Positions 15,340 to 63,066 of a stretch of 64,000 bases of DNA are shown in pieces (positions within the stretch are counted from its first letter, which is position 1; every line of letters starts with the position of its first letter). The stretch is from the NCBI GenBank assembly GCA_034002405.1, contig JAVFAS010000005.1:2092-66091 (forward strand), read 5' to 3'. The stretch is from Bacteroidota bacterium (GTDB lineage: Bacteria > Bacteroidota > Ignavibacteria > SZUA-365). The notes below the pieces were generated by a model that saw only the letters and a program-made list of their open reading frames with translations, was not told where the DNA came from and did not search any database. Position numbers and translations under genes: made by a program.

Positions 15340-15343
15340 CCGC

Positions 15344-17968: not shown

Positions 17969-17980
17969 CCGGACACGACA

Positions 17981-18697
17981 ATGCCATTCCGACTTTTCTG
18001 CATATTCCCGCATCCCGACGACGAGAGTTTTCTCATGGGCGGTACCATCGCCACCCTGACCGCCGCGGGACACGAGGTCTCCCTTTACACACTCACGCGA
18101 GGGGAGAACAGCCGGAACGGTCGCATCCTGGGCCTGGATCCGATCGAAGTCGGTCGACGACGCGCGCACGAAGTCGAGGAGGCGTCGCGCATCCTTGGCA
18201 TTCGTCGGTTGATGCTGGCGGATTATCCTGATGGCGGATTACGGGACATGGATCCGCGCATTCTCGAGCGCGATATCGCGCAAAAAATCCGGGAGCTGCG
18301 GCCACATGTGCTTTGCACGTTTGACGTGCAGGGCAGCTCGGTTCACCCCGATCATATTACCCTGCATCATGTCGTCAAGCGTCTGTTTGTCGCGTTGCGT
18401 GAAGAAATCGACGCACTGCAACGATTGTGTTCCTGCGTCCTCCCAAACGACCGGATCGCGCACTGGCCACGCAAGGTTTTCGGTGTGCCGCGCCACCGCA
18501 TCAATGCGGTCATCGACGTCCGTGCGGCACGCTCCATCGAGGAACAGGCACTGCGTGCACACCAAACCGTCACGCGCGACGTGGCGGAACATAACTATGA
18601 TAACTGGATGCTCTGGGACGAAGAATATTTCAGCTTCTTCCAGGAGCTTCACGACCCCCCGGTCCCGGATCTCTTCGACGGAGTCCGACCTGTCTGA
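17981..18697 (+). CDS. PIG-L/LmbE family N-acetylglucosaminyl deacetylase
   Basis: N-terminal FPHPDDESFLMGGTIA and the HPDH motif (SVHPDHITLH) are typical of the LmbE/BshB/MshB-like zinc deacetylases. Lies 13 nt downstream of the second cargo gene. Confidence 0.8.
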   Translation: MPFRLFCIFPHPDDESFLMGGTIATLTAAGHEVSLYTLTRGENSRNGRILGLDPIEVGRRRAHEVEEASRILGIRRLMLADYPDGGLRDMDPRILERDIAQKIRELRPHVLCTFDVQGSSVHPDHITLHHVVKRLFVALREEIDALQRLCSCVLPNDRIAHWPRKVFGVPRHRINAVIDVRAARSIEEQALRAHQTVTRDVAEHNYDNWMLWDEEYFSFFQELHDPPVPDLFDGVRPV

Positions 18698-18772
18698 CCC
18701 GTACCTCATCCCGCTTCGTGCAATCCGTTCCGCCCACCCGTGCTCGATGCGGTTTCCCCATCGTTCGATCAC

Positions 18773-46621: not shown

Positions 46622-48055
46622 CTACCGGGAAATGTAGGAAAGCTGTTTCCGCAACTGTTCGATGCGATCGCGCAGCGACCGGTCGCTTTCCATGGCCGAC
46701 TCGATGGTTTTGCATGCATGGATGATGGTACTGTGATCTCGTCCACCAAAATGAAGTCCGATGGTTTTCAAGGATGCGCGCGTGAGATCCTTGGCGAGGT
46801 ACATGGCGATCTGCCGGGGAAAGACCACTTCCTGCTTTCGTGATTTCGCCCGGAGTGCGTTCTCCGGAAGCTTGAAATAATCCGCGACGATCTTCTGAAT
46901 TTGTTCGACCGTGATGTCTTTTTTCTCGGAAGAAATGACATGCCGGAGCACCCGCTCCGCCAGCGTGACATCGAGAGGTTGCTGCTCGAGAGTATGGCGC
47001 GCGATGAGCCCGATGTAACAGCCTTCGAGTTCGCGGATATTTGATTTGACATTCGAGGCGATGAATTCAATCACGTCCTGCGGCAGGTCGATATGGTCAC
47101 TTTCCGCTTTCTTTCGGAGGATGGCGATGCGTGTCTCGAGATCCGGGGGTTGCACGTCGACGGTGAGTCCGCATTGGAAGCGTGAAATCAGTCGCTCGTC
47201 AAGTCCGACCAGATCCTTCGGTGCCCGATCGGACGAAAGAATGATCTGTTTCTTGAGCTGATGCAGGGTGTTGAAGGTGTGGAAGAATGTGTCCTGGGTT
47301 CGTTCCTTGCCGGAGAAAAACTGGATGTCGTCGACGATCAACACATCCATGTTTCGATAGAAATTCGAGAATTCGATGGTGTTGTTCCGCTCGATTGCCT
47401 CGACGAAGTCGATGGTGAATTTCTCGCTGCTCACGTAATACACACGCTTGCCGGGATTGTTCATCGACACATGGTTGCCGATGGCTTGAATCAGATGGGT
47501 TTTCCCCAGACCAACACCACCGTAGAGCACCAGGGGATTGAAAGCCGTCTCTCCCGCATTGTTCGCCACATTCAACGCGGCGGCGCGGGCGAACTGATTG
47601 CCGTCACCGCGGATGAAGCTGTCGAAGGTGAATTTGGGATTGATATTGGTCACGAAGGGTTCACGCACGTACACCGGTGTCGTGGTACCCGCGCCTTGCG
47701 ACGTGGCGGCTGCAGGGGTAGAACCAGACGGATAGGGGTTTCTCTCCACCGCGAACGGAAGCTGTTCCTGCTTCGGCAGCTTGACGGCGTATTGCAGCGC
47801 CGCATTCTCTCCGAGGATTTCCCTGAGGGCCTGCTGGATCATCGAGAAATAGTGTTCCTCGATCCACTCATAGAAGTACGAACTCGGCACCTCCACGGTC
47901 AGAAGCGCATCGTCGAGCGAGGCGGGGAGGATGGGTTCGAACCATGTGCTGAACGTCAGCGGTTTGATCTGAGGACGAATCAGTTCGAGGCATTCCTTCC
48001 AGACGGACGACGCGCTCTTCCCGGTTTCAACATTCATTGCGTTTGAGTTATTCAC
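46622..48055 (-). CDS. dnaA: chromosomal replication initiator protein DnaA
   Basis: AAA+ Walker A LYGGVGLGKTHLIQAIGN, the box VII/sensor motifs, and the C-terminal DNA-binding domain (VVFPRQIAMYLAKDLTRASLKTIGLHFGGRDHSTIIHA). The start appears to be GTG, overlapping a TTATTCACA box. Confidence 0.93.
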   Translation of the reverse strand: MNNSNAMNVETGKSASSVWKECLELIRPQIKPLTFSTWFEPILPASLDDALLTVEVPSSYFYEWIEEHYFSMIQQALREILGENAALQYAVKLPKQEQLPFAVERNPYPSGSTPAAATSQGAGTTTPVYVREPFVTNINPKFTFDSFIRGDGNQFARAAALNVANNAGETAFNPLVLYGGVGLGKTHLIQAIGNHVSMNNPGKRVYYVSSEKFTIDFVEAIERNNTIEFSNFYRNMDVLIVDDIQFFSGKERTQDTFFHTFNTLHQLKKQIILSSDRAPKDLVGLDERLISRFQCGLTVDVQPPDLETRIAILRKKAESDHIDLPQDVIEFIASNVKSNIRELEGCYIGLIARHTLEQQPLDVTLAERVLRHVISSEKKDITVEQIQKIVADYFKLPENALRAKSRKQEVVFPRQIAMYLAKDLTRASLKTIGLHFGGRDHSTIIHACKTIESAMESDRSLRDRIEQLRKQLSYISR

Positions 48056-51766: not shown

Positions 51767-52462
51767 TCAGAAGCAGTAGAAAATTCCAAGGGAATAGACG
51801 TTTCCGTTCAGGTTGATATTCGAACGGAACGGGGTGGTGGCAAGGTGGTATCGCACGCCGTTCGCAACGACGGCGTCGGTGGGAAACTGGTTTTCCACAC
51901 TCATCTGGGGATCGCGGAACAGGAGCTCGAAACGCATTCCCAAGGCGTCAAATATCAGATATTCAGCTCCGAGAATCACCTGCATTCCCAACGCCGGCGT
52001 CGAGGACACGGATTGCGACTCGATGGCGGCGATCGCGTACCGGCGCTGACCCGTAGAGACGCCAATCCCCCCGCCCACGTACATTTCAAACCGCGCACTG
52101 GAAAACGGAAGTGCAAACAGCGCGCTTCCCTCCAGCAGCAGCACGCGCAACCCGTTCGTGATGGGAGTTCCCACCGGATCGCTGGACACCTTGTCATGCG
52201 AGACATATTCCCCGCGGAGATCGACACGAACCGTCCGCCAGATGCGGGAGCGCCAGGAAACCGCGGCACTGAATGCCGAACCGAGTGCCTCGCTTTGATT
52301 TCGCAGCACGGGATCCGGTGCGTTTGGCGCGGGGAAGATGCGCGCGTCATCATTCAGATTCGCGTGCAGCGTGATACTGTGCTCGCCGCGCTGCGCCGAG
52401 ACGGTGGTCCAGAGCATCAGCAAAAGCAGACACCCCCGAAGGAGCGCTGCGGGGAACGACAT
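51767..52462 (-). CDS. outer-membrane beta-barrel protein (OmpW/porin-like)
   Basis: Signal peptide LLRGCLLLLMLWTTVSAQ. Amphipathic alternating strands. The C-terminus ends in an aromatic residue (NGNVYSLGIFYCF). Confidence 0.5.
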   Translation of the reverse strand: MSFPAALLRGCLLLLMLWTTVSAQRGEHSITLHANLNDDARIFPAPNAPDPVLRNQSEALGSAFSAAVSWRSRIWRTVRVDLRGEYVSHDKVSSDPVGTPITNGLRVLLLEGSALFALPFSSARFEMYVGGGIGVSTGQRRYAIAAIESQSVSSTPALGMQVILGAEYLIFDALGMRFELLFRDPQMSVENQFPTDAVVANGVRYHLATTPFRSNINLNGNVYSLGIFYCF

Positions 52463-52551
52463 CCTTCGGGGGTGTGACATACGGGTCCTTTCCGGAATCA
52501 GAAAATCGGCGGTTTCCTTACGCGGTGACTTTTGGTGATCGCGCCGGGGTC

Positions 52552-54651
52552 TTAACGGAAGAATCGGTCACGATTGTCGACAATATCGATATCCTTCCGC
52601 TTCTGCTCGATCCAGGTCTGGATGAATTCATTCTGCGTGCTCGAGAGAAGCTGCTGACGGATCTCGTCCTTTTTTACCTTGAAGGCCGTCTCGTCGAACT
52701 TCGCCTTGCTGTCGAGGCGCATGACATAGATGCCGCGCTGTCCGCGGAACGGCGCGCTGGAGGCACCCTGTTTGAGGCCGAGGAGTTTGCCGATGAAGGC
52801 CTGGTCGGCACCGACATTGGGAACACCATTCTGAATCTTGAACGGTGGGGTGGTGGTGAGGGTCAGCTGGGGATTCGCGGCCACGATCTGTTCGAGGCTT
52901 TTTCCGGAGGCCATGCTCTTGGCCTTCTTGAGCGTGTTTGCCAGCTGACGCTCGTACACGACCTGCGGTTTGATCTGCTCCTTCACTTCATCGAGAGAGC
53001 GGTAGCCGGCGGGACGCTCATCGGAGACGATGGCCACGACATACCCGCCCGCCGAACGATGGACCTCGCTGATTTCACCGACACCGTTTTCAAACGCGAA
53101 TTTGAGCAGCGCCGGATTCGTTCCGATGTTGGGGATATAGGAACCGGTCTGCTGCGCGAACTCCGGTGTTTCCTGCACCGCAAGCTCCTGCGTCTCGGCC
53201 TCGGCTTCGAAACTGGTTTCGGACGCGAGATACGCGAAGTCGCGGGCACGTTCGAAAATCTGATCCTTCGTGCTCGATCCTGCCTTGATTTCCAACCGCA
53301 CCTCGGCGAGCTTCATCTCGCTGGAGGAACGATCATGCACCTTGATGACGTGCCAGCCGAACTGTGTTTTGACCGGCCCCTTGATTTCTCCGGGACGCGA
53401 TCCGAACACGACATCCTCGAACTCCTTGACCATGCGACCCTTGCCGAACCACGAGAGATCTCCTCCACGTTCGGCGGCACCGGGTTCCTCGGAATACTGC
53501 GCCGCGAGTTTCGCGAAATCGGCACCCGCTTTCGCCTGTCCGAGCACGTCCTCCGCTTTATTCTTCTGCGCTGCTTCATCCTGGCCCCCATCGGTGCGGA
53601 AAAGGATGTGCGACGCGTGATACATCACGTTGTCGCTGCTGCGTGCGTCCATGACCCGGAACAGGGAGAGGCCCGATTCGTTGGGGATCGGTCCGACAAC
53701 AGAGCCGACCGGCTGGGAAAAGACCTGCGTGGCCACTTCCGGCGCAACCTGGTCGCGGGTGAACCAACGCGTGGAATCGTAGGTCGTCTCGGAGTTGTCG
53801 GCGACAAGCTGCACGAAGTCGGTGCCACTCGCGGCAAGATCGCGAATCGTATTCAATTCATTGACGATCGCGGCCGTGTCGCTTTTCGACGGAATCTCGG
53901 AGAAGAGCACATACTTCAGCTTGCGCATCTCCTCGGTCTTGAAACGCTCTTTGTTTTTTTCGTAGTACTTCTCGTATTCCTCCGCTGTCGGCGCGGCGGT
54001 GTCGCTCGCGGCGAACACGCGCGGATCGAAGAACACGTAGCTGCTGACGAAGTCGATATTCTGTTCGATGAACTTCGCTTGAATCGCACCGTCGGGCACG
54101 ACAACCGCCGCGGTGAGAATGTTGGTCAGCTTCGAGCGAAGCAGGTCCTGCTTCAGCTGGGATTCGATGGCGACAAGTGCCTCCTGGTTTTCCGGACCCG
54201 GATTGCGCAGGAACTGCTCGTAGACATCGCGATTGAACTTCCCGGTGGAGTCCATGAAATGCTGCGTGAGAAGCTGGGGAGGATTGGCGCTCCATACCCA
54301 GTCGGTGATCTCCTCATCGGAGACGGAGATCCCAAACTCCTCGATGGCCTGCTCGACAATCGTCTGCGTCACCATATCATTCCAGACCTGCTCACGGATC
54401 TGCATGTAATCGTTTTCCGTAAGCTCGCGGCCACCTTCCTGCTCCTGTTTCTGCTGGGTCGCACGATCGACGATCTCTTGAAACTCCTGGTAGGTGATGG
54501 ATTTCCCACCAACGTTCCCGATTTCGTTCATCGAGCCCTGCATGATCGACCCGAGGTCAAGGTCGCTGAAGACCCAGAACCCGATGAAGATGACCACGAA
54601 AGCCATGATGAAAACGTGCGCATTGTCGCGCATTTTGGTCATCATACCCAT
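52552..54651 (-). CDS. ppiD: periplasmic chaperone PpiD-like peptidyl-prolyl isomerase (SurA/parvulin family)
   Basis: N-terminal TM anchor AHVFIMAFVVIFIGFWVF, a SurA-N-like chaperone domain, and a parvulin PPIase segment HASHILF...GGDLSWFGKGRMVKEFEDVVF...FGWHVIKV. Confidence 0.78.
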   Translation of the reverse strand: MGMMTKMRDNAHVFIMAFVVIFIGFWVFSDLDLGSIMQGSMNEIGNVGGKSITYQEFQEIVDRATQQKQEQEGGRELTENDYMQIREQVWNDMVTQTIVEQAIEEFGISVSDEEITDWVWSANPPQLLTQHFMDSTGKFNRDVYEQFLRNPGPENQEALVAIESQLKQDLLRSKLTNILTAAVVVPDGAIQAKFIEQNIDFVSSYVFFDPRVFAASDTAAPTAEEYEKYYEKNKERFKTEEMRKLKYVLFSEIPSKSDTAAIVNELNTIRDLAASGTDFVQLVADNSETTYDSTRWFTRDQVAPEVATQVFSQPVGSVVGPIPNESGLSLFRVMDARSSDNVMYHASHILFRTDGGQDEAAQKNKAEDVLGQAKAGADFAKLAAQYSEEPGAAERGGDLSWFGKGRMVKEFEDVVFGSRPGEIKGPVKTQFGWHVIKVHDRSSSEMKLAEVRLEIKAGSSTKDQIFERARDFAYLASETSFEAEAETQELAVQETPEFAQQTGSYIPNIGTNPALLKFAFENGVGEISEVHRSAGGYVVAIVSDERPAGYRSLDEVKEQIKPQVVYERQLANTLKKAKSMASGKSLEQIVAANPQLTLTTTPPFKIQNGVPNVGADQAFIGKLLGLKQGASSAPFRGQRGIYVMRLDSKAKFDETAFKVKKDEIRQQLLSSTQNEFIQTWIEQKRKDIDIVDNRDRFFR

Positions 54652-54864: not shown

Positions 54865-56352
54865 TTAGAACCGATAGGTCAATCCGACGAGCAGACGGGT
54901 GATGTCGACCTCGCGTTCCACGAGAAACGCACTTTCCGGCACGTCTCCATCCGGATCGGTGTAGTTGTAGCTGTACCCCTCGTAATTCGACAGGGTATAC
55001 GCCGCGTTGAGCGCGAAATTATTCTTGAATTCGTAGCCGACGCCGACGGAGATGGTTTTCACGTCGAATTCGGATGTGCCCTCATCCTCGTCATACGGCG
55101 AGAAGCGGTAGCCGAAGCCGCCGCGGAGGAAGAGCCCCGTTTTCGGAACATTGACCTCGGCGCCGATGCGGAAGTTGTTCGTCTGACGGAACTGCCTGCG
55201 AATGTCGCGGTTCAGATCCGTGGTGCTGAAATTATTCGATTCCTCGAATTCCAGATCCGAATAGTCGACGAGCTCGAGGTCGCCGCTGATGGTGGCGAAA
55301 TCGACTGGTGACCAGGAGGCGCCGAAGCTGTAGATCGGAGCGGTGGAGATTTCGTAATTGTTGTTGTCGACATTCAACTCGTACTGAAGACTCGCGTCGG
55401 CGAAGCGGCTCGATCCGGTTTTCGAGTAATCCTCGCTGACCGAAATCACGTTGGCGGTCTGGATGGCCACACCGAAACGTGCCTTGTCCTGAAGATTGTA
55501 GAGAAAGCCGATCTTGAAGTTGAATCCCGAGAGGTCCTGCTCCCATTCTTCGTACAGCTCCAGACGCTGAAAATCCGTCCGGGCGACGTCGTCGATGCCG
55601 ACAATCACGTCCTGCCAGACGTTGTTGACATCCTCTTCGATAAAGGTGCGTTCGTACCGGTACTGTCCGGAGAGGACGTTGAGAGAAATGCCGACGAGCG
55701 CGTTCGGCGCGACTTCGATGCTGCCACCGAAGCTCCACTGGTTGAGACCGCCCTCCTCGATTTCATCAATGGTCTGCTGCACGCGGTTGGCGACCGGGAT
55801 CGCGAGCCATCCCGGTTGGCCTTCGTCGAGGTAGGAGAAAAGAAGGGTGTCCTCGAGACCAAGATTCCAGGCAAAATCCAGTGCTTCATCCTCATTGTAC
55901 AGCGAGGCCTGGATGGAACTCATCGGGTTGAACAGATCCATCTGCATCGTTCCGGCGTAATCGAGCAATCTGTTGTAGCCGGCGGCAACAACGAAGCTTC
56001 CACGTGCCACGGGAAAGGGGATGGCGAGGTTGATATTGCTCAATGCGGTGCTGGATTCACTTCCGCTGCCTCCGCCGAACAGTGCGCCAAGATGGGCATC
56101 GTTGTTCATCGAGACATTGGACATGCCGATACTGAATTCGCTGGCGCGGAGCTGGCCGAGTCCGGCCGGATTCCAGTACAGCGCCGATGCGTCGTTGGCG
56201 AGACCGATGAACGCCCCGCCCATTCCGGCACTGCGGGGACTGACCAGCGTGCCGCTGTGCGACAGACGGAGCGCGTCCTCGGGCACCTGTGCCGCCGCGG
56301 GTATCGCCATGATAACAAGGACAAGGAAGACAAGATATATCGTGTGTTTCAT
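54865..56352 (-). CDS. FadL/PorV-family outer-membrane beta-barrel transporter
   Basis: Signal peptide MKHTIYLVFLVLVIMAIPAAAQ. The N-terminal motif AGMGGAFIGLANDASALYWNPAGL resembles the FadL/TodX NPA hatch region. The C-terminus ends VGLTYRF. Confidence 0.62.
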   Translation of the reverse strand: MKHTIYLVFLVLVIMAIPAAAQVPEDALRLSHSGTLVSPRSAGMGGAFIGLANDASALYWNPAGLGQLRASEFSIGMSNVSMNNDAHLGALFGGGSGSESSTALSNINLAIPFPVARGSFVVAAGYNRLLDYAGTMQMDLFNPMSSIQASLYNEDEALDFAWNLGLEDTLLFSYLDEGQPGWLAIPVANRVQQTIDEIEEGGLNQWSFGGSIEVAPNALVGISLNVLSGQYRYERTFIEEDVNNVWQDVIVGIDDVARTDFQRLELYEEWEQDLSGFNFKIGFLYNLQDKARFGVAIQTANVISVSEDYSKTGSSRFADASLQYELNVDNNNYEISTAPIYSFGASWSPVDFATISGDLELVDYSDLEFEESNNFSTTDLNRDIRRQFRQTNNFRIGAEVNVPKTGLFLRGGFGYRFSPYDEDEGTSEFDVKTISVGVGYEFKNNFALNAAYTLSNYEGYSYNYTDPDGDVPESAFLVEREVDITRLLVGLTYRF

Positions 56353-56439
56353 GAGATTCTCCAGGTAAACCGCGTCGCCGCGGCGTCCGTGCGCATCGCT
56401 GCGCGATTCATCTTCGTGTCTGTTCCGTCTCGCTCGAAA

Positions 56440-57411
56440 TTACCGCGAACGGCTTCGGCCGCCCGAACTCGACGAGCCGGAACTGCTGCGCGACGAACCG
56501 CTGCTTCGCGATCCCGAACTTCCGCTGCTGCTGCGCGACGGGGGTGAGTAGCTGGGTGACGACGATCCCGAGCTGCTCCGGCTGCGGGACGGAGGAGAGT
56601 AGCTGCGCTCGGTGGATCCGGAATTTCCGCGTGCGGGAGGTGAATAGCTGCGCTGGGTCGAGCCACTGCGCGAGCGCACACCCTCGGTCGAACGGCTGCT
56701 TCCGGAACTGCTGCGTGGCGCGGTGCTTTGCGTGCTGCGTGACCGGGTCGGGCTGGTACTCGAGCTCCTCGAGCGTACCGCGTTGTTCTCGCGTGTCTGC
56801 GTATTCAAACGATCGTAGGTGCTGCGTGTGCGTGGAGACGTGGAACGAACGCCGGTCGCGCCGTCCACGGTGCGCGTGACACCGGTCGATCGGGTTGCCG
56901 AACGCGTGACCCCTCCCGTGCGGGTCCGTGTATCGAGCGTGCGCGTGACCCCTCCCGTGCGAATGCGCGTGCCGTCGGTGCGTACGGTGTAGGAAGAACC
57001 ACCGCTATAATACGGGTACCCATACCAGCCACCGTACCCGGCGTAATGGTGATGATGACCATACCAGCCCCAGGACGGACCGTACCAGAACGGATCCCAG
57101 TACGAGTGATAGTATCCCCAATACGGCGGGGTGTAATACCACGGGTCGTAGTATCCCGACCAGACCGAGCCGAAGCGAAGCGGGTAATAAAAATCAAAGT
57201 ACACGCCAGACCGGCGATAGCCGTCGTAGTAGTAATTGTTCGTGATCTGATTGCCCGAGCTGTCTTCATAGGTTTCGGAGTACTCGGGGTAGTCATATTC
57301 CTCGTAGCGTGGATACTCGTCGCGCATGGCGATCTGCGTGTAGCAGCCAGACGTGCCGAGCATCACTACCATGGAAGCAGCTGCAAGGAAAAATATTCTC
57401 ATTCGTTTCAT
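56440..57411 (-). CDS. lipoprotein with Tyr/Trp-rich low-complexity region and Arg/Ser-rich tail
   Basis: Signal peptide MKRMRIFFLAAASMVVMLGTSGC. Then comes a ~90-aa aromatic block (YYYDGYRRSGVYFDFYYPLRFGSVWSGYYDPWYYTPPYWGYYHSYWDPFWYGPSWGWYGHHHHYAGYGGWYGYPYY). GVTRT repeats follow. The final ~110 aa are RS/SP-rich (RSYSPPARGNSGSTERSYSPPSRSRSSSGSS...). Confidence 0.5.
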   Translation of the reverse strand: MKRMRIFFLAAASMVVMLGTSGCYTQIAMRDEYPRYEEYDYPEYSETYEDSSGNQITNNYYYDGYRRSGVYFDFYYPLRFGSVWSGYYDPWYYTPPYWGYYHSYWDPFWYGPSWGWYGHHHHYAGYGGWYGYPYYSGGSSYTVRTDGTRIRTGGVTRTLDTRTRTGGVTRSATRSTGVTRTVDGATGVRSTSPRTRSTYDRLNTQTRENNAVRSRSSSTSPTRSRSTQSTAPRSSSGSSRSTEGVRSRSGSTQRSYSPPARGNSGSTERSYSPPSRSRSSSGSSSPSYSPPSRSSSGSSGSRSSGSSRSSSGSSSSGGRSRSR

Positions 57412-57665
57412 GACACACCTCATCGGTACAGTACGTTGCTCTCTACTATGCAACAATTTTCATGCCTTTATCGTGTCCGCGAACCCGGTGAAAAAATCCT
57501 CTATTTCACCGGATATTCAAGCTACGGGTGCGAAATCTCAGAAGAAAGGCGAAGTGTGGTGACCTCACCAGGGGACGACCTGTGTACACCGCGGGTGACG
57601 ATCGCGATGGGATGGTCACGGCGTTCGGCAGAGATCCGGGAGCACACGCGCGGTTCGGGAGCGAG

Positions 57666-58451
57666 TCAAAGGTAGCGTACGTACTGGATGCGAATCGCGC
57701 GGATGACCTTGTCATTCGGAAATTCGGAGGTCAGGAGGTTCTTGAACAGGATATCCGCATTGAAGCCGATGTTCGTCGAAATCCTGAATCCTGTACCCAA
57801 TGAGCCGTTCCAGAATCCCTTGCTGTTGCGATCGTTGTCGAACGCGAAATTGTATTCGGCGAGCCAGGAGACAATCGGCCCGATCGATTTCTCCATGCCG
57901 ATGTAAAGATTCGGATCGTAATCCTCGTCGTTTCGTTCGAGCGTGTAGTTTGCCCCTCCATGGAAGCTGATGGTCCCATGGAATTGATAATTCTTGCTGA
58001 CCGCGACAAAAAATCCCGGACTTTTCATCACATACTGCCGCATCGAGGGAATCCAGCCATCGCGTCCCTGTGAATCGAAACCGGCGACGACGGCGGGGTT
58101 GACATTCGATTCTTCCATCACGCGATAGCGTGCGGAGATGCCGGGAAGATTATTCCAGGTAATGCCCCCGCTGCCGATCAGATTCGTGCCGCCGAAGGAA
58201 AGGCCGATGTTGAGATTCGGCAGCAGTCCGTAAGTAAACGCGGCGAGAAGTCCGCCATTCGGGTAGAGGTATGTTTCAACCGCGCCCGCCGTGGTGGGGA
58301 TGATCCCGGCCACGGGCATGTCGACCAGGAATTTCGGATCGATGTTGGCACGGTCACCCGCGGAACGCTGCGCATGCAGTCCCGTCGTCAGCAGGGTGAC
58401 GAGCGCGAAGCACAGGGCAGCGAGAATGGAGAGTCGTTGCGTACAGATCAT
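57666..58451 (-). CDS. hypothetical outer-membrane beta-barrel protein
   Basis: Start at MICTQRLSILAALCFALVTLLTTGLHAQ (signal peptide). Gly/Asn-rich alternating strands. Confidence 0.45.
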   Translation of the reverse strand: MICTQRLSILAALCFALVTLLTTGLHAQRSAGDRANIDPKFLVDMPVAGIIPTTAGAVETYLYPNGGLLAAFTYGLLPNLNIGLSFGGTNLIGSGGITWNNLPGISARYRVMEESNVNPAVVAGFDSQGRDGWIPSMRQYVMKSPGFFVAVSKNYQFHGTISFHGGANYTLERNDEDYDPNLYIGMEKSIGPIVSWLAEYNFAFDNDRNSKGFWNGSLGTGFRISTNIGFNADILFKNLLTSEFPNDKVIRAIRIQYVRYL

Positions 58452-58455
58452 TCCG

Positions 58456-59445
58456 TTAACGATTTCCGGCGATGAACGCCTCGGCATCGAGGACATCGTT
58501 TTCGCTCCCAAGGAAGACGGGGGTGCGCTGGTGGATGTCCGACGGCACGATATCGAGAATGCGACGCTGTCCCTCGCTGGCGCGGCCACCCGCCTGCTCG
58601 ATGATCATCGCCATCGGGTTCGCCTCGTACATCAATCGGAGTTTTCCACTCGGATTCTGGCTGTCGGCCGGATAGCAGAAAATCCCGCCGTACAGAAGGG
58701 TACGGTGCACATCGGCGATCATCGATCCGACATATCGTGATTTGTAAGGCCGGCCGCTCGCGTCGTCCGGTGTCTGGAGATAATCGATGTAGCGGCGAAA
58801 TCCGTCATCCCAGAGCCGGCGACTGCCTTCGTTCGTGCTGTAAAAGCGGCCACGCTTCGGAATCGTCAGGTTCGGATGCGAGAGGAGGAAGGAGCCGATG
58901 GTTGGATCGAGTGTGAATCCCTGCACCCCTTCGCCCGTGGTGAAGACCATGATCGTGCTCGACCCATACATGATATATCCCGCGGCGACCTGTTTGAAGC
59001 CGGGTTGAACAACATCCTCGACCGTGCCCCGACCCTCTGTCGTCACGCGGCGGAAGATCGAGAAGATGGTGCCGATGGTGACGTTGACGTCGATATTGGA
59101 GGAGCCGTCGAGCGGATCGAACAACATGACGTAATGGCCGCAGGGAAATTCCGGAGGAATGGGAATGATGGATTCGTTTTCTTCCGAGGCCATGACACAG
59201 AGCTGACCACCACTTTCCATCGCATTGATGATCATCTGGTTGGCGAACACATCGAGTTTCTTGACATCCTCGCCATGCACATTCGTGGCCGCCGCGCGGC
59301 CGAGGATGTTGACCAGTCCGGCGCGACGGACTTCGCGCGAGACGATTTTCGCAGCCAGCGCCAGATTGCGCAGCAGCGTCGAGAATTCCCCGCTGGCTTC
59401 GGGGTGACTTCGCTCCATTTCGGCGATGTAGCGCTGGATGCTCAT
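58456..59445 (-). CDS. fbp: fructose-1,6-bisphosphatase class 1
   Basis: Matches class 1 FBPase along the whole length. Shared segments include DPLDGSSNIDVNVTIGTIFSIFRR, QVAAGYIMYGSSTIMVFTTG and GKLRLMYEANPMAMIIEQAGG. Confidence 0.9.
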   Translation of the reverse strand: MSIQRYIAEMERSHPEASGEFSTLLRNLALAAKIVSREVRRAGLVNILGRAAATNVHGEDVKKLDVFANQMIINAMESGGQLCVMASEENESIIPIPPEFPCGHYVMLFDPLDGSSNIDVNVTIGTIFSIFRRVTTEGRGTVEDVVQPGFKQVAAGYIMYGSSTIMVFTTGEGVQGFTLDPTIGSFLLSHPNLTIPKRGRFYSTNEGSRRLWDDGFRRYIDYLQTPDDASGRPYKSRYVGSMIADVHRTLLYGGIFCYPADSQNPSGKLRLMYEANPMAMIIEQAGGRASEGQRRILDIVPSDIHQRTPVFLGSENDVLDAEAFIAGNR

Positions 59446-60023: not shown

Positions 60024-62012
60024 TCACAGATTCCAGAGCATCCGTACAGAGATGTTCGTGGTCGTGCGTACGGGCCGTTCGTCTTCCGAGGTGAACTGCA
60101 ACCACCCCTCGGCAAGAATGTCCGTCGCATCGGAGAGACGAAGACGCATGCTGGCCGTCGGACCGTAGCTGCGCAGCGTCCCGGCCGGCTGGCGGGTCAA
60201 CGCCGTGTATCCGTAGCGGCGCTGTTCGAACAGTCGGAATCCCACCGCGGCGCGGACGGACTCGCCGAGTCGCAGCAACGAAAATGCGAGGGTGCGTTCA
60301 TCGAAGAATTGAAGCGGACGAAGGGTAAATGCCGACCAGTGCAATTCGCCGCGCTCGTAGAAACGGAAATGAAGTTGCAGCTCGCTCCAAATGTTTCCAC
60401 CCAGATGGAGCACCGTCGAATCGGTGAGCGTCAACTGGCGCAACGAGAAACTTCGCTGGGACTGCCCCGCGCTCTCGAAATCGTAGACCGTGTAGTTCGC
60501 GACCACCTCGGCCCCGTTGCGGGAAATAAAGGATGCGCCACTCCGATATTCTGTCGATGGCGCGAGCCGGAGCACGCGGTTCCAGGTGTTGTTGGCGCTG
60601 CGTTCGGAGAAAATGAATACCGTGTGTCGGAGGTTGAAATCGGTCGCGATGGATGCGAGGAAGCGTGGACTGAAACGATGGGACCAACGCACCCCCGCGA
60701 GCACGAACAACTCATCGCGGTCATCATGGTTCTCGTCGCTCGGCGTGTCGTATTGCATCTTCACCGTCGATGCGGAGAACCAGACTGTGTCGCGGTCCGA
60801 TAGCGCGTGCGCAACCTGCAATCCGATCTGCGTTTGGCGGATGCTGTTGTTTTTCTGGCGCTCGAGGGACTGTTGACGCGCGAAACTGACGGAACTCGCA
60901 CCGTCGAAGTCGCGGATTTCATGCAATTCGTCGCGTTCATTGAGCTCCATGCGCAGCTGTCCCGTCGTCCCGGAACCATTGTCATAGAGGAACTGGAGGC
61001 TGCCGTTGAGACGGAACTCGCCGATGTCGGCGTCAAAAAAAGGGAGAGGATCGTCCGGATTTCGCTGCGGGCGCGCACGGGTGATATCCCGCTGGGTGAG
61101 ATCGACGCCGGCGATCATGCGCAGCGGATCGAACACCCGGTACTGCAAGGTGTTGCCGAGGGTGACCACCTGCTCGTCGCGGGATTCGATCGGATATGCC
61201 ACGCCGCGGGTCGCGTCCAACGCGGAATCGTAGGGAAGGTAAAACTCCCGTCGCAGCGAGCGGAACTGCAGCTGCAGGTGATTCTGTCCGTCCTCGGCGA
61301 ATCCCGCAAGGAAATCGGCCGCGCCACGATGTTCCTGCTGGAAGCGTGGATCGATATACTCCGCGGAGGAATACCATTCCGCGACCGTGGCCGTGCGACC
61401 AATGGTCAGATCCCGAAGACGCACATCGGCCGAATACATCAGGCCATGGTCCCCAATGCCCTGTTGGTTGTCGAAACTCACGCCCGCGGTGGGTGCGACG
61501 TGCAGCTGCGGAAACGGACGCCAGCGCACACCGGCCTGGGCCTTGTGTACCGACAGATCATTCAACGCCAGTGCCCGATTGTCGGAAAAAAGAAAAGAAG
61601 AAAAGGAGCCGATAATCGAAAGATCCGGTGCAAGATCATGTTCCGCGCCGAATCCGAATGCCTGTTCGTCCTTCACGGATGTCCGTTCGGTGCGAATCAA
61701 CATCCGCTGAAAGCGTTCATCGGCGCGGATGCGAAACGGTCCGGCGTCCCCGTGCCAGCTTCCGGTGAAATCCCAGAGAAAGGTGTTGACGTTGCGCTCG
61801 AAGGCGAGCGCGATGTGACCCGGGGAGTCCGGTCCCGTCAACGAATCGGAGGCGAGCGTCCCCTCCGCTCCCGCTGTCACACTGCTCGGATCCGTGTCCG
61901 TGTTCGGATTCGTGACTCCCCCCGGATCCGCGACTCCTTGCGCGGCAAGCATCAGCGGCAGGAACAACAGCACGAGGATACACGGAAGGATGTGTCGCTT
62001 CCACATGCGCAT
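60024..62012 (-). CDS. large hypothetical secreted/outer-membrane protein
   Basis: Signal peptide MRMWKRHILPCILVLLFLPLMLAAQG. The ~660-aa body is rich in alternating polar/aromatic residues, consistent with a large beta-barrel. No known motif recognised. Confidence 0.45.
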   Translation of the reverse strand: MRMWKRHILPCILVLLFLPLMLAAQGVADPGGVTNPNTDTDPSSVTAGAEGTLASDSLTGPDSPGHIALAFERNVNTFLWDFTGSWHGDAGPFRIRADERFQRMLIRTERTSVKDEQAFGFGAEHDLAPDLSIIGSFSSFLFSDNRALALNDLSVHKAQAGVRWRPFPQLHVAPTAGVSFDNQQGIGDHGLMYSADVRLRDLTIGRTATVAEWYSSAEYIDPRFQQEHRGAADFLAGFAEDGQNHLQLQFRSLRREFYLPYDSALDATRGVAYPIESRDEQVVTLGNTLQYRVFDPLRMIAGVDLTQRDITRARPQRNPDDPLPFFDADIGEFRLNGSLQFLYDNGSGTTGQLRMELNERDELHEIRDFDGASSVSFARQQSLERQKNNSIRQTQIGLQVAHALSDRDTVWFSASTVKMQYDTPSDENHDDRDELFVLAGVRWSHRFSPRFLASIATDFNLRHTVFIFSERSANNTWNRVLRLAPSTEYRSGASFISRNGAEVVANYTVYDFESAGQSQRSFSLRQLTLTDSTVLHLGGNIWSELQLHFRFYERGELHWSAFTLRPLQFFDERTLAFSLLRLGESVRAAVGFRLFEQRRYGYTALTRQPAGTLRSYGPTASMRLRLSDATDILAEGWLQFTSEDERPVRTTTNISVRMLWNL

Positions 62013-62022
62013 GGAATCAGCC

Positions 62023-63066
62023 TCAGTTGCGGACCTGGAAGCGCCAGGCATCCGAAACACCATTGGGCAGGCCATTCTCCGCCGTGAGAGAAGACACGCG
62101 CCAGTAATAGGTCTGACCCACGGTCAAGGCCGGACCGTCAACGCGATGTGACAGCGTGTCGCCCGCGGCCGGACGAACGAGACGCGACCAGACCTCGCCG
62201 GATGTTTCCGCGAGTAAAACCGTCAGAAGATAGGCATCCGTTTCGGGAACCCGGAGCCATCGAAGGAGAGGATAGGGAGCGGCCTGTCCGTTCGGGAGTG
62301 GTGACACGAGCACCGGTCGCGATGCGATGAAATCGGAGCGCAGCTCCGACCGCGGGCTTTCCAATGCGCCGCGGTCGACCGACGTCACCGCGTAGAAATA
62401 CCGGCGGCCGATCTGCTGCACGGAGGTGTCGTCATGAAACGCGGCATCGGTCTCGGCGAACAGCAGCGCGGGTGTGGGATCTTCAAACGGGGTTTCCGAC
62501 CGGTATATCCGGTAATACGCGAGGTCGGCCTCGTCCACCGGGGACCAGGTCAAACGCAGGAGCTGCTTCCGGCCGTCGTTGTATCCGTTGACATGAAAAT
62601 ATGCGGGCGCGTCGGGCGCGTTGCGATTGTGCGCTATCGCCGAGACGGTGTCGGATGGCACGCTTTCGTTGCCACGTTCGTCCACCGCGGTCACGAAATA
62701 CCAATACGTCGTGTCGTAACTGCGTTGCTGGTCGATGTGATAATTCGTGCTGATCGTATCGACAGCGATGAAGCGGTGAGAATCCTTCGATTCAGCGCGA
62801 TGGACGATGTACCCGCGAAGATCGGGCTCCCGGTTCTTGATCCATCCAATGAATATGTATCCGTCGCGCGCGCCTTCGACCAGCAATCCGGTCGGGGGAA
62901 GCGGTGGTATGGTGTCGGGCCCCGGGTCGATGATGCGTTCGCGCTCGCAGGCCGATGCAAGGATGCAGAGCAGCAGCATGATCGCGACGGGCGTGCGACC
63001 GCGCCAGTCGCGGGACGCGCGCGCAAGGATACCGGTCGGCGATATGGAACGAATGCGAGGTGACAT
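62023..63066 (-). CDS. putative lipoprotein with fibronectin type III-like domains
   Basis: The probable start is the internal MLLLCILASAC (lipobox-like). At least two ~90-aa segments have FN3 features (PP.P.GL.V...W..N.E.DL.GY.V.R, then YYWRVSS). 10-nt gap to the downstream outer-membrane protein gene. Confidence 0.5.
   Translation of the reverse strand: MSPRIRSISPTGILARASRDWRGRTPVAIMLLLCILASACERERIIDPGPDTIPPLPPTGLLVEGARDGYIFIGWIKNREPDLRGYIVHRAESKDSHRFIAVDTISTNYHIDQQRSYDTTYWYFVTAVDERGNESVPSDTVSAIAHNRNAPDAPAYFHVNGYNDGRKQLLRLTWSPVDEADLAYYRIYRSETPFEDPTPALLFAETDAAFHDDTSVQQIGRRYFYAVTSVDRGALESPRSELRSDFIASRPVLVSPLPNGQAAPYPLLRWLRVPETDAYLLTVLLAETSGEVWSRLVRPAAGDTLSHRVDGPALTVGQTYYWRVSSLTAENGLPNGVSDAWRFQVRN

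What the first reader, a model, noticed from the sequence alone, without database searches (positions are those of the whole stretch)
54865..57411. Tyr/Trp-rich, Arg/Ser-tailed lipoprotein paired with a FadL/PorV-like outer-membrane barrel
The upstream gene encodes a lipoprotein with an extreme aromatic block (about 45 % Y, W, F, H and G over 90 aa, including HHHH) and then an RS/SP-repeat tail. This composition is closer to eukaryotic RS-domain or biomineralisation/adhesive proteins than to typical bacterial lipoproteins. An 87-nt gap separates it from a FadL-family barrel on the same strand. PorV of the T9SS is FadL-like, so this pair could be a cargo-shuttle or hydrophobic-substrate uptake module with a novel partner.
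Basis: partly seen in the sequence, partly recalled or inferred. Interest (0 to 1): 0.55.

Follow-up and report, generated by a model that had tools for sequence, protein, structure and literature searches.

The report
Disordered lipoprotein with BamG-like barrel partner
A strangely composed outer-membrane lipoprotein (acidic head, tyrosine/tryptophan block, arginine/serine tail) is the near-constant upstream neighbour of a FadL/BamG-type barrel across many Bacteroidota-related phyla, which marks an undescribed and experimentally testable envelope module rather than a PorV shuttle or an assembly artefact.

Summary
On the minus strand, a 323-aa lipoprotein (56440-57411) lies 87 nt upstream of a 495-aa FadL-family barrel (54865-56352). 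The aromatic block is stronger than reported: 62% Y/W/F/H/G over 90 aa. The ORF has the same length in three independent assemblies.

The PorV reading is not supported. By fold, the barrel matches BamG and FadL (E 1e-19 to 1e-23), while PorV reaches only 1.6e-6. Its mature N-terminus is 10 residues longer than FadL's, and that extension is invariant, as described for BamG. It is not the BamG orthologue: the Ignavibacterium album counterpart is IALB_2070, whereas published BamG/BamH are IALB_1455/1454.

In 71 of 74 informative related loci, a lipoprotein with the same layout sits upstream. That layout is an invariant G|CYT(Q) lipobox end, an acidic segment, an aromatic block and a basic S/R tail ending in R/K. 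It has no Pfam or NCBIfam family. A third conserved gene (57666-58451/58496) encodes a 12-strand barrel weakly related to the N-terminal barrel of YjbH/GfcD.

Best reading, which is inferred: the barrel docks, and possibly exports, the lipidated N-terminus of the disordered lipoprotein. I call it a new variant of a known kind, interest about 0.6.

The parts
56440..57411 (-). Gene for the 323-aa 'CYTQ' lipoprotein, stop codon included
   Evidence: ORF, sequence and SD-like site; composition; homologues P0121-P0139; same architecture in 71 of 74 informative loci; no Pfam or NCBIfam hit
57343..57411 (-). Signal peptide and lipobox (aa 1-23, ...LGTSG|C). C-Y-T is invariant and Q follows in 49 of 65 relatives
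   Evidence: Pattern read from the sequence; position-by-position counts over 65 loci. No SignalP or LipoP was available
57250..57342 (-). Acidic, Tyr-rich segment after the lipid-anchor Cys (aa 24-54; family mean net charge about -7.5)
   Evidence: There is no D/E within +1..+6 of the Cys in 54 of 65 relatives
56977..57249 (-). Aromatic block (aa 55-145: YYDPWYY, YWDPFWY, HHHH, GWYGYPYY; about 40% Y/W/F; near-neutral charge)
   Evidence: A [YFW][DN]P[WYF][WYF] motif is present in 48 of 65 relatives
56443..56976 (-). Basic low-complexity tail (aa 146-323: first T/R-rich, then S/R/G/P-rich; three SYSPP motifs; ends GRSRSR; net charge +25)
   Evidence: The family mean tail charge is +22, and 58 of 65 relatives end in an R/K-rich C-terminus
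56903..56982 (-). 39-nt tandem duplication (2.1 copies, 78% identity) encoding TRxRTGGVTR(T/S). It is the only TRF-detectable repeat in the gene
56353..56439 (-). 87-nt intergenic spacer, with a GGAG 7 nt before the barrel ATG
   Evidence: The same 87-nt spacing is seen in L001-L004, and most relatives have 9-160 nt
54865..56352 (-). Gene for the 495-aa FadL/BamG-type 14-strand outer-membrane barrel (NCBI MDX9758077.1)
   Evidence: Pfam Toluene_X 67.5 bits; NCBIfam BamG 57.9 bits; AF2 model pLDDT 83.4; Foldseek: BtBamG 5.5e-23, PaFadL 2.6e-21, FjBamG 3.9e-21; accession
56143..56289 (-). N-terminal hatch of the mature barrel (aa 22-70). It includes the invariant 10-residue extension QxxEDALR and the NPAGL motif
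   Evidence: Invariant columns Q22, D26, A27, L28, R29 and N61-L65; hhalign register against E. coli FadL
57666..58496 (-). Third conserved gene: a 261-276-aa secreted 12-strand barrel ('OMP276'; the NCBI call starts at 58451; MDX9758079.1), weakly related to the N-terminal barrel of YjbH/GfcD

Best explanation
The two genes, together with the 12-strand barrel gene just upstream, form a conserved outer-membrane module of non-Bacteroidia FCB-type bacteria.

The 14-strand barrel is a paralogue of the FadL family and resembles BamG more than transport FadLs or PorV. I infer that it serves as the membrane dock for the invariant, lipidated CYTQ N-terminus of the lipoprotein. This would parallel the way BamG clamps the conserved lipidated N-terminus of BamH next to its own conserved N-terminal extension.

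The rest of the lipoprotein is probably unfolded. It has an acidic segment, a Tyr/Trp block and a long Arg/Ser tail, which could self-associate or bind anionic envelope polymers through Tyr/Trp-Arg and charge interactions.

A further and less certain step concerns export. By analogy with the lateral-exit model proposed for GfcD/YjbH and lipid-anchored polymers, the hydrophilic tail may pass through a barrel while the acyl chains leave through the lateral opening. That would display the protein on the cell surface.

Shown here: gene structure, composition, fold class, paralogy to published BamG, and strong conserved synteny. Inferred: physical contact, topology and export.
For: Synteny:
- 71 of 74 informative loci carry a GCYT aromatic lipoprotein directly upstream on the same strand. 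These loci span Ignavibacteriota, Calditrichota, KSB1, Poribacteria, Chloroherpetonaceae and Neomarinimicrobiota. Rhodocaloribacter (Rhodothermota) carries the pair as well.
- The I. album genes overlap or abut: LP1/LP2 overlap by 4 nt, and LP2 and the barrel are 2 nt apart.

Conserved ends on both partners:
- Lipoprotein: C-Y-T invariant in 65 of 65, then Q in 49 of 65, then L/F/V/I, then A/G/S.
- Barrel: the mature N-terminus is 10 residues longer than FadL's, and this extension is invariant (Q22, D26, A27, L28, R29). The same feature distinguishes BamG and contacts BamH (PMC12578637, PMC12611786).

Fold and family:
- Top Foldseek hit is BtBamG, with FjBamG and PgBamG among the FadLs.
- NCBIfam BamG is the best-scoring model for the window barrel and for 7 of 10 relatives tested.

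Precedent for gene adjacency:
- bamG/bamH-type pairs are adjacent genes in non-Bacteroidia FCB phyla, and BamG2/H2 are adjacent in Bacteroides (PMC12578637).

Third component:
- A YjbH-N-like 12-strand barrel lies in 47 of 84 loci.
- GfcD/YjbH combine a 12-strand barrel with a lateral-gate barrel and are proposed to export lipid-anchored polymers. Their operons also encode an S/T-rich low-complexity protein (PMC11494523, PMC8592465).
Against: - There is no direct evidence of contact. No complex prediction was possible, because the structure tool refuses chimeric or locus-derived sequences.
- The lipoprotein shows no similarity to BamH and fails the Bacteroidota surface-export rule. That rule requires at least 2 acidic residues within six of the Cys, and 54 of 65 relatives have none. 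A periplasm-facing topology is therefore at least as likely as surface display.
- Fold search cannot separate BamG from transport FadLs, and the FadL NPA motif is intact.
- The 12-strand barrel is absent from the Rhodocaloribacter locus and from about 40% of loci.
- The YjbH link is sub-threshold (19.8 bits against a cut-off of 24; hhalign probability 56%).
Confidence: 0.45

Rival explanations
1. This is a hydrophobic-substrate uptake unit. The barrel is a working FadL-type channel for long-chain fatty acids or hydrocarbons. The aromatic lipoprotein is an accessory that captures or hands over hydrophobic ligands.
For: - The barrel passes Pfam Toluene_X above threshold.
- The PDB profile search hits TbuX at 4.5e-9, P. 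aeruginosa FadL and CymD.
- The NPAGL hatch motif is invariant.
- FadL structures score as well as BamG in Foldseek.
- In F. johnsoniae, the bona fide FadL homologue Fjoh_4941 also has an adjacent, co-regulated lipoprotein, Fjoh_4940 (PMC12045153).
Against: [quoted passage not shown]
- No fatty-acid or hydrocarbon catabolic genes are conserved around the pair. Neighbours differ between lineages, apart from the 12-strand barrel.
- A basic S/R tail of about 180 aa and net charge about +22 has no obvious role in lipid hand-over.
Confidence: 0.25
2. This is an alternative BAM accessory pair, analogous to BamG2/BamH2. The barrel binds BamA, and the lipoprotein replaces BamH as a client-specific or condition-specific module of the beta-barrel assembly machine.
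For: - BamG is the best NCBIfam match for most family members tested.
- BtBamG is the top structural hit.
- The barrel has a conserved N-terminal extension.
- BamG2/H2 paralogue pairs exist as putative operons (PMC12578637).
- In this window the pair is followed by a PpiD/SurA-like chaperone gene.
Against: - NCBIfam scores are 27-87 bits against an equivalog cut-off of 250.
- The A1 profile does not find F. johnsoniae BamG in the PDB and finds P. gingivalis BamG only at E 0.016.
- The lipoprotein is not BamH-like and lacks the acidic surface-export signature.
- The chaperone neighbour is conserved only in close relatives.
- No BamA or BamD gene is linked to the pair.
Confidence: 0.15
3. The lipoprotein acts on its own as a periplasmic tether or spacer. 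[quoted passage not shown] Its adjacency to the barrel would reflect co-regulation, not contact.
For: - The lipoprotein has no acidic surface-export signature.
- Its charge partition is extreme: head about -7, tail about +22, with an R/K-rich C-terminus in 58 of 65 relatives.
- The disordered tail is long enough to span a periplasm (inference from its length).
Against: - Linkage to one barrel family in 71 of 74 loci across many phyla, with overlapping or abutting genes, is stronger than co-regulation usually gives.
- The invariant CYTQ N-terminus suggests a specific protein contact rather than mere lipid anchoring.
Confidence: 0.1

Closest known systems
BamG-BamH (and the paralogous BamG2-BamH2) of the Bacteroidota BAM complex (PMC12611786, PMC12578637)
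   Same: - A FadL-family 14-strand barrel whose conserved N-terminus is about 10-12 residues longer than FadL's.
- A partner lipoprotein with a conserved lipidated N-terminus.
- The two genes are adjacent in non-Bacteroidia FCB phyla and in the G2/H2 pairs.
- BtBamG is the top structural match.
   Different: - It is not the orthologue: I. album carries this family as IALB_2070 in addition to published BamG/BamH, IALB_1455/1454.
- It scores 58 bits against a 250-bit equivalog cut-off.
- The lipoprotein is low-complexity, not a folded CBM-like scaffold.
- The lipoprotein lacks the acidic surface-export signature.
- Association with BamA is unknown.
FadL/TodX/TbuX hydrophobic-substrate channels, including the F. 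johnsoniae FadL homologue Fjoh_4941 with its adjacent lipoprotein Fjoh_4940 (PMC12045153)
   Same: - Membership of Pfam Toluene_X.
- An NPA hatch motif.
- The 14-strand fold.
- An adjacent lipoprotein gene.
   Different: - A longer, invariant N-terminal extension.
- No conserved lipid-catabolism context.
- A lipoprotein partner of unrelated and unprecedented composition.
PorV (T9SS cargo shuttle)
   Same: - A distant FadL-superfamily barrel.
- The N-terminal hatch motif (ARxxGMG...NPAG) gives sub-threshold PorV_fam hits.
   Different: - Fold similarity is poor (E 1.6e-6, TM 0.33-0.43).
- All PorV models score below their cut-offs.
- No T9SS genes or CTD cargo are linked to the pair.
- It is not a member of the family.
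GfcD/YjbH with GfcA/YjbE (group 4 capsule and yjbEFGH systems; PMC11494523, PMC8592465)
   Same: - A 12-strand barrel is combined with a barrel of 14-strand topology that opens laterally.
- An S/T-rich low-complexity secreted protein is encoded in the same operon.
- The 12-strand barrel here shows weak sequence similarity to the YjbH N-terminal barrel.
   Different: - Here the two barrels are separate proteins, and the lateral-gate barrel belongs to the FadL family.
- The low-complexity protein is itself lipidated, aromatic and Arg-rich.
- No Wza/Wzc-type polysaccharide genes are linked.
- The similarity is sub-threshold.
RcsF-OmpA/C/F and FapF/autotransporter-type threading of unfolded polypeptide through small barrels
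   Same: - A lipoprotein with a long, disordered, basic segment is encoded beside barrels.
   Different: - There is no sequence relationship.
- Threading is pure inference.

Membership tests
FadL/TodX/OMPP1 family (Pfam PF03349 Toluene_X) | Sequence match above the Pfam gathering threshold | tested here: met
   67.5 bits against a cut-off of 29.7. Relatives carry PF03349 as well
FadL/TodX/OMPP1 family (Pfam PF03349 Toluene_X) | 14-strand barrel with an N-terminal hatch and a conserved NPA motif | tested here: met
   AF2 model, pLDDT 83.4. Foldseek gives FadL, TodX, TbuX and CymD at E 1e-17 to 1e-21. N61-P62-A63 are invariant
FadL/TodX/OMPP1 family (Pfam PF03349 Toluene_X) | Transport of long-chain fatty acids or hydrocarbons through the lateral opening | not testable with these tools
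   Needs uptake or complementation assays. Model coordinates could not be inspected
BamG (Bacteroidota BAM subunit; NCBIfam NF053685) | Score above the equivalog cut-off (250 bits) | tested here: not met
   57.9 bits. Ten relatives score 27-87 bits
BamG (Bacteroidota BAM subunit; NCBIfam NF053685) | Conserved N-terminal extension of about 10-12 residues relative to transport FadLs | tested here: met
   hhalign register against E. coli FadL gives +10 residues. The extension QxxEDALR is invariant in 23 sequences
BamG (Bacteroidota BAM subunit; NCBIfam NF053685) | Orthology to the BamG assigned in the same lineage | tested here: not met
   The I. album member of this family is IALB_2070 (locus). 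Liu et al. list BamG as IALB_1455 and BamH as IALB_1454
BamG (Bacteroidota BAM subunit; NCBIfam NF053685) | Partner is a BamH-type surface lipoprotein with at least 2 acidic residues within six residues of the Cys | tested here: not met
   A partner lipoprotein exists, but it has no BamH, Pfam or NCBIfam similarity. 54 of 65 relatives have no D/E at +1..+6
BamG (Bacteroidota BAM subunit; NCBIfam NF053685) | Physical association with the back of the BamA barrel | not testable with these tools
   Needs BamA pull-down or cryo-EM
PorV/PorQ family (NCBIfam NF033709, NF033710) | Score above the family cut-offs | tested here: not met
   PorV_fam 50.8 against 90, matching the N-terminal 60 residues only. 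T9SS_OM_PorV 13.3 against 250. PorVQ2 34.5 against 325
PorV/PorQ family (NCBIfam NF033709, NF033710) | PorV-like fold | tested here: not met
   8gl6_F has E 1.6e-6 and TM 0.33/0.43 and ranks 46th, below unrelated porins
YjbH/GfcD family (Pfam PF06082), for the upstream 12-strand barrel | Match above the Pfam threshold (24 bits) and the two-barrel architecture | tested here: not met
   The window protein gives no hit. 25 of 40 relatives hit sub-threshold, with a best E of 4e-6 and the N-terminal ~100 profile positions only. It is a single 12-strand barrel. hhalign probability is 56%. RefSeq nevertheless names the I. album orthologue 'YjbH domain-containing protein'
Bacterial lipoprotein (signal peptidase II substrate), for the upstream ORF | N-terminal signal peptide ending in a lipobox Cys | tested here: inconclusive
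   The pattern ...LGTSG|C, with G at -1, is conserved in all 65 relatives. No SignalP or LipoP was available, and acylation is untested

The most novel reading that the evidence does not exclude
The module may be a dedicated two-barrel exporter that places an intrinsically disordered, lipid-anchored 'sticker' protein on the cell surface.

The Tyr/Trp block and the Arg-rich tail carry the cation-pi grammar of FUS-like condensates and mussel adhesive proteins, and SYSPP recalls the PSYPP of Mfp-1. Such a protein could form a self-associating adhesive or permeability-filter layer.

The FadL/BamG-type barrel would release the acyl chains laterally into the outer leaflet. That would make it a lipoprotein flippase, and it would suggest the ancestral job of BamG.
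Probability: 0.12. Interest if true: 0.9.

Novelty: new variant of a known kind. Interest (0 to 1): 0.6.

Why it matters
Three points give this weight.

- **BamG context.** BamG/BamH were described only in 2025 as essential, FCB-specific additions to the beta-barrel assembly machine. Why a FadL-type barrel clamps a lipoprotein N-terminus is still unexplained. This locus reveals a second, widespread barrel-lipoprotein pairing of the same general design. Its cargo is so simple (a lipid anchor plus an unfolded chain) that it could serve as a minimal system for asking whether FadL-type lateral openings handle lipoprotein anchors.
- **Unclassified families.** The locus defines two protein families with no Pfam or NCBIfam home: the CYTQ lipoprotein and the stand-alone YjbH-N-like 12-strand barrel. 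It also gives a bacterial lipoprotein with an acidic, aromatic and cationic block layout. I know of no described counterpart; that statement rests on my own knowledge and on four literature searches in which no paper describing it turned up.
- **Testability.** Cultured carriers exist: Ignavibacterium album IALB_2067-2070, and Rhodocaloribacter litoris GQ464_014515 with its neighbour.

Tried and rejected
- **PorV/T9SS shuttle.** Rejected on fold and model scores.
- **Canonical BamG orthologue.** Rejected through the I. album locus tags.
- **Variable tandem repeat or misassembly of the tail.** Rejected.
- **Single-sequence PDB searches.** These were uninformative. The barrel gave no hits. The lipoprotein gave only chance haemagglutinin matches at E above 0.3.
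- **PDB search with an N-terminal hatch profile.** It did not retrieve BamG chains, so BamG and PorV N-termini could not be compared residue by residue.
- **Rfam scan of 51-60.5 kb.** Nothing credible.
- **Second FadL-like gene in the window.** None found.
- **Structure prediction with locus-derived rows.** For the same reason no barrel-lipoprotein chimera or complex could be modelled, and the lipoprotein itself was not modelled. Both prediction slots went to the two barrels.
- **Conservation of the other window neighbours.** The PpiD-like chaperone, the 237-aa OMP, FBPase, the HATPase protein and the 683-aa protein are conserved only in close relatives, so I did not count them as part of the module.
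- **Literature search for IALB_2067-2070.** No papers.
Full report
**1. What is in the sequence**

Both genes lie on the minus strand. The upstream gene runs from 57411 to 56440 and encodes 323 aa. It begins MKRMRIFFLAAASMVVMLGTSG|CYTQIAMRDEYPRYEEYDYPEY, which is a lipoprotein-type signal peptide by pattern. A GAGG lies 6 nt before the ATG.

- The best 90-aa window (aa 52-141) is 62% Y+W+F+H+G and about 40% Y+W+F, and it includes HHHH.
- A T/R-rich stretch follows.
- The last 94 residues are 48% S, 16% R, 13% G and 9% P, with three SYSPP motifs and the ending GRSRSR.

The stop codon is followed by exactly 87 nt. Then comes the ATG at 56352 of a 495-aa protein that passes Pfam Toluene_X (FadL/TodX; 67.5 bits against a cut-off of 29.7).

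Of 268 stop-to-stop ORFs of at least 100 codons in the window, the lipoprotein ORF is the only one above 25% Y/W/F in any 60-residue window. It reaches 0.47.

**2. The ORF is real and the tail is not a variable repeat**

Three independent metagenome assemblies (Logan contigs L001-L003) carry the gene with identical length. They differ by three SNPs, two synonymous and one E to D, and have no indels.

Tandem Repeats Finder reports only a 39-nt x 2.1 duplication at 56903-56982.

**3. The barrel is FadL/BamG-like, not PorV-like**

An AlphaFold2 model built on 23 homologues (pLDDT 83.4) shows a 14-strand barrel with long strands and an N-terminal hatch. Foldseek against the PDB gives these scores:

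| Target | E-value |
|---|---|
| B. thetaiotaomicron BamG (top hit) | 5.5e-23 |
| P. aeruginosa FadL | 2.6e-21 |
| F. johnsoniae BamG | 3.9e-21 |
| E. coli FadL | about 1e-20 |
| P. gingivalis BamG | 8e-19 |
| PorV (TM 0.33-0.43) | 1.6e-6 |

NCBIfam scoring points the same way. The best model is BamG (57.9 bits), but the equivalog cut-off is 250. PorV_fam reaches 50.8 bits (cut-off 90) and matches only the N-terminal hatch motif. Of ten relatives from other phyla, seven have BamG as the best model, and it is second or third in the rest (27-87 bits).

A profile of the family finds TbuX (4.5e-9), P. aeruginosa FadL and CymD in the PDB. It finds PorV only at 0.004 and P. gingivalis BamG only at 0.016.

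An hhalign comparison with E. coli FadL fixes the alignment register. The mature N-terminus here is 10 residues longer than FadL's. Those residues (QxxEDALR) are invariant in 23 sequences that range down to 34% identity, as is NPAGL. The two 2025 BAM papers single out a conserved N-terminal extension of about 10-12 residues as the feature that distinguishes BamG from transport FadLs. They also report that it contacts the conserved lipidated N-terminus of BamH (PMC12578637, PMC12611786).

**4. It is a paralogue of BamG, not the orthologue**

Supplementary Table 1 of Liu et al. lists Ignavibacterium album BamG as IALB_1455 and BamH as IALB_1454. It also shows that bamG and bamH are adjacent genes in most non-Bacteroidia FCB representatives.

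The I. album member of the present barrel family is instead 'Hypothetical protein IALB_2070', which is 95% identical to the barrel of an Ignavibacterium MAG locus. It lies at 2.365 Mb of CP003418. The same genome therefore holds the published BamGH pair and this pair.

This step relies on the paper's assignment. I could not retrieve IALB_1455 itself.

**5. The lipoprotein is a conserved partner with a defined architecture**

A scan of one genome per species with the barrel profile returned 80 loci. Of the 74 with enough upstream DNA, 71 carry an ORF with the same layout directly upstream on the same strand. The three exceptions are two Latescibacteria and one Gemmatimonadaceae locus. The cultured Rhodocaloribacter litoris (Rhodothermota) has the pair as well (GQ464_014515 plus a 510-aa Toluene_X barrel that scores 303 bits against the family profile).

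Over 65 full-length lipoproteins the pattern is as follows:
- The residues after the cleavage site are C-Y-T (65 of 65), then Q (49 of 65), then L/F/V/I, then A/G/S.
- An acidic D/E/Y segment follows, with mean net charge -7.5.
- A near-neutral aromatic block comes next. A [YFW][DN]P[WYF][WYF] motif is present in 48 of 65.
- A cationic low-complexity tail closes the protein, with mean net charge +22. It ends in R/K-rich residues in 58 of 65, and 28 of 65 have Y[STN]PP motifs at about 80-90% of the length.

None of the sequences hits any Pfam or NCBIfam model. NCBI annotates relatives as hypothetical proteins.

54 of 65 have no acidic residue within six positions of the Cys. They therefore do not meet the rule used for Bacteroidota surface lipoproteins, including BamH-K (PMC12578637).

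**6. A third conserved component**

The gene upstream of the lipoprotein (57666-58451/58496; NCBI MDX9758079.1) is 41% identical to I. album IALB_2067 (E 7e-63). A homologue lies beside the barrel in 47 of 84 loci, including the three loci that lack the lipoprotein.

The family has 444 representative clusters at E of 1e-3 or better among 1.84 billion proteins. Its AlphaFold2 model (pLDDT 89.2) is a barrel of about 12 strands with a conserved N-terminal LVDMPTAGLL segment.

Three lines link it weakly to YjbH/GfcD:
- RefSeq names the I. album protein 'YjbH domain-containing'.
- 25 of 40 relatives give sub-threshold Pfam YjbH hits to the first ~100 profile positions.
- hhalign aligns 180 columns with E. 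coli YjbH residues 30-251, at probability 56% and E 1.2e-4.

GfcD/YjbH are predicted to be a 12-strand N-terminal barrel plus a C-terminal barrel with a lateral aperture, and they are proposed to export lipid-anchored polymers (PMC11494523). Their operons also encode a small S/T-rich low-complexity protein that has been speculated to be a GfcD cargo (PMC8592465). I treat this as an architectural parallel and a lead, not as membership.

**7. How it most likely works**

The following points are shown:
- The fold class of both barrels.
- The paralogy to published BamG.
- The near-obligate linkage of barrel and lipoprotein.
- The invariant ends on both proteins.

The following is inferred. The barrel binds the lipidated CYTQ N-terminus of the lipoprotein at or near its lateral opening and N-terminal extension, as BamG binds BamH. 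The remainder of the lipoprotein is unfolded and acts through multivalent Tyr/Trp-Arg and electrostatic contacts, either with itself or with anionic envelope polymers.

Whether the chain faces the periplasm or is exported to the surface is open. The missing acidic export signature suggests the periplasm. The GfcD analogy, the presence of a 12-strand barrel and the BamH precedent suggest the surface.

My confidence is about 0.45 in the docking model as a whole and about 0.12 in the surface-export and adhesive reading. The rivals are:
- An ordinary FadL uptake channel with an accessory lipoprotein (0.25). F. johnsoniae Fjoh_4941/4940 is a precedent (PMC12045153).
- An alternative BAM accessory pair (0.15).
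- An independent periplasmic tether (0.10).

**8. Verdict**

It is wrong on PorV.

The finding is a new variant of a known kind, a FadL/BamG-type barrel with a cognate lipoprotein. It involves two protein families without any database home and a lipoprotein of very unusual design, and it is widespread in Ignavibacteriota, Calditrichota, Rhodothermota, KSB1, Poribacteria and relatives. Interest is 0.6.

Noticed in passing
L019:5292-5960, L023:5340-5936, L021:5533-5916, L028:5272-5946, L029:866-1573 and ten further loci. I. album IALB_2069 = L084:9534-9998 is the shorter form without CxxCH: Many relatives carry a second, shorter lipoprotein between the first one and the barrel. It starts with the same G|CYT, has a PWW motif and has an S/T/N/R tail ending in RR. 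In 15 loci it holds a single conserved CxxCH (for example NCLSCHS), the c-type heme attachment motif. This window lacks it. A possible heme lipoprotein beside a Tyr/Trp-rich one is unexplained.
   Followed up: partly
window 57666-58496 (-): This conserved 12-strand barrel has no Pfam hit of its own. Its start codon is called differently by different pipelines: GTG at 58589 gives 307 aa, ATG at 58496 gives 276 aa, and the NCBI call at 58451 gives 261 aa. Its invariant polar residues (R125, E129, Q143, H179, E187, E214) might line a pore or a catalytic site.
   Followed up: partly
window 52552-54651 (-) and 51767-52480 (-): Directly downstream of the barrel lie a 699-aa membrane-anchored PpiD/SurA-like chaperone (SurA_N_2 plus two PPIC rotamase domains) and a 237-aa OMP-like protein. 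The 64-kb window is locally rich in outer-membrane genes, but these two are syntenic only in close relatives (L001, L002, L004).
   Followed up: yes
window 60024-62075 (-) and 62023-63066 (-): A 683-aa secreted protein with no Pfam or NCBIfam hit is alternating and beta-rich and ends in ...RMLWNL, so it may be a large outer-membrane barrel. A 347-aa neighbour sits beside it. Both are conserved only in L001, L004 and L021.
   Followed up: no
window 46622-48055 (-); cumulative GC skew minimum near 38-42 kb: The dnaA gene lies about 7 kb from the locus, mapped from the gene calls of L001 (DnaA_N, Bac_DnaA, Bac_DnaA_C). The cumulative GC skew turns near 40 kb, so the window probably spans the replication origin region.
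   Followed up: no
window 57480-57507 (-), between the 12-strand barrel gene and the lipoprotein gene: There is a perfect 9-bp stem (CCGGTGAAA ... TTTCACCGG) with a 9-10-nt loop and no T-run. A terminator-like hairpin lies at 57569-57548. Together they may separate or regulate transcription of the lipoprotein-barrel pair.
   Followed up: no
L084:6190-7481 (+) and 11595-21419 (-), I. album: Around the I. album module lie a weak 'sugar-transfer associated ATP-grasp' protein, GlmS, a Bac_transf sugar transferase, a DegT aminotransferase and a 1902-aa C25 peptidase with a T9SS tail. This could hint at a link to surface glycan synthesis, or it could be coincidence.
   Followed up: no
L029 (record title 'Bacillota bacterium'), L005 ('Chitinophagales'), L057/L058/L063 ('Cytophagia'): Some record titles look taxonomically odd for carriers of this module. 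They may be mislabelled MAGs. For that reason I make no claim about the presence or absence of the module in class Bacteroidia.
   Followed up: no
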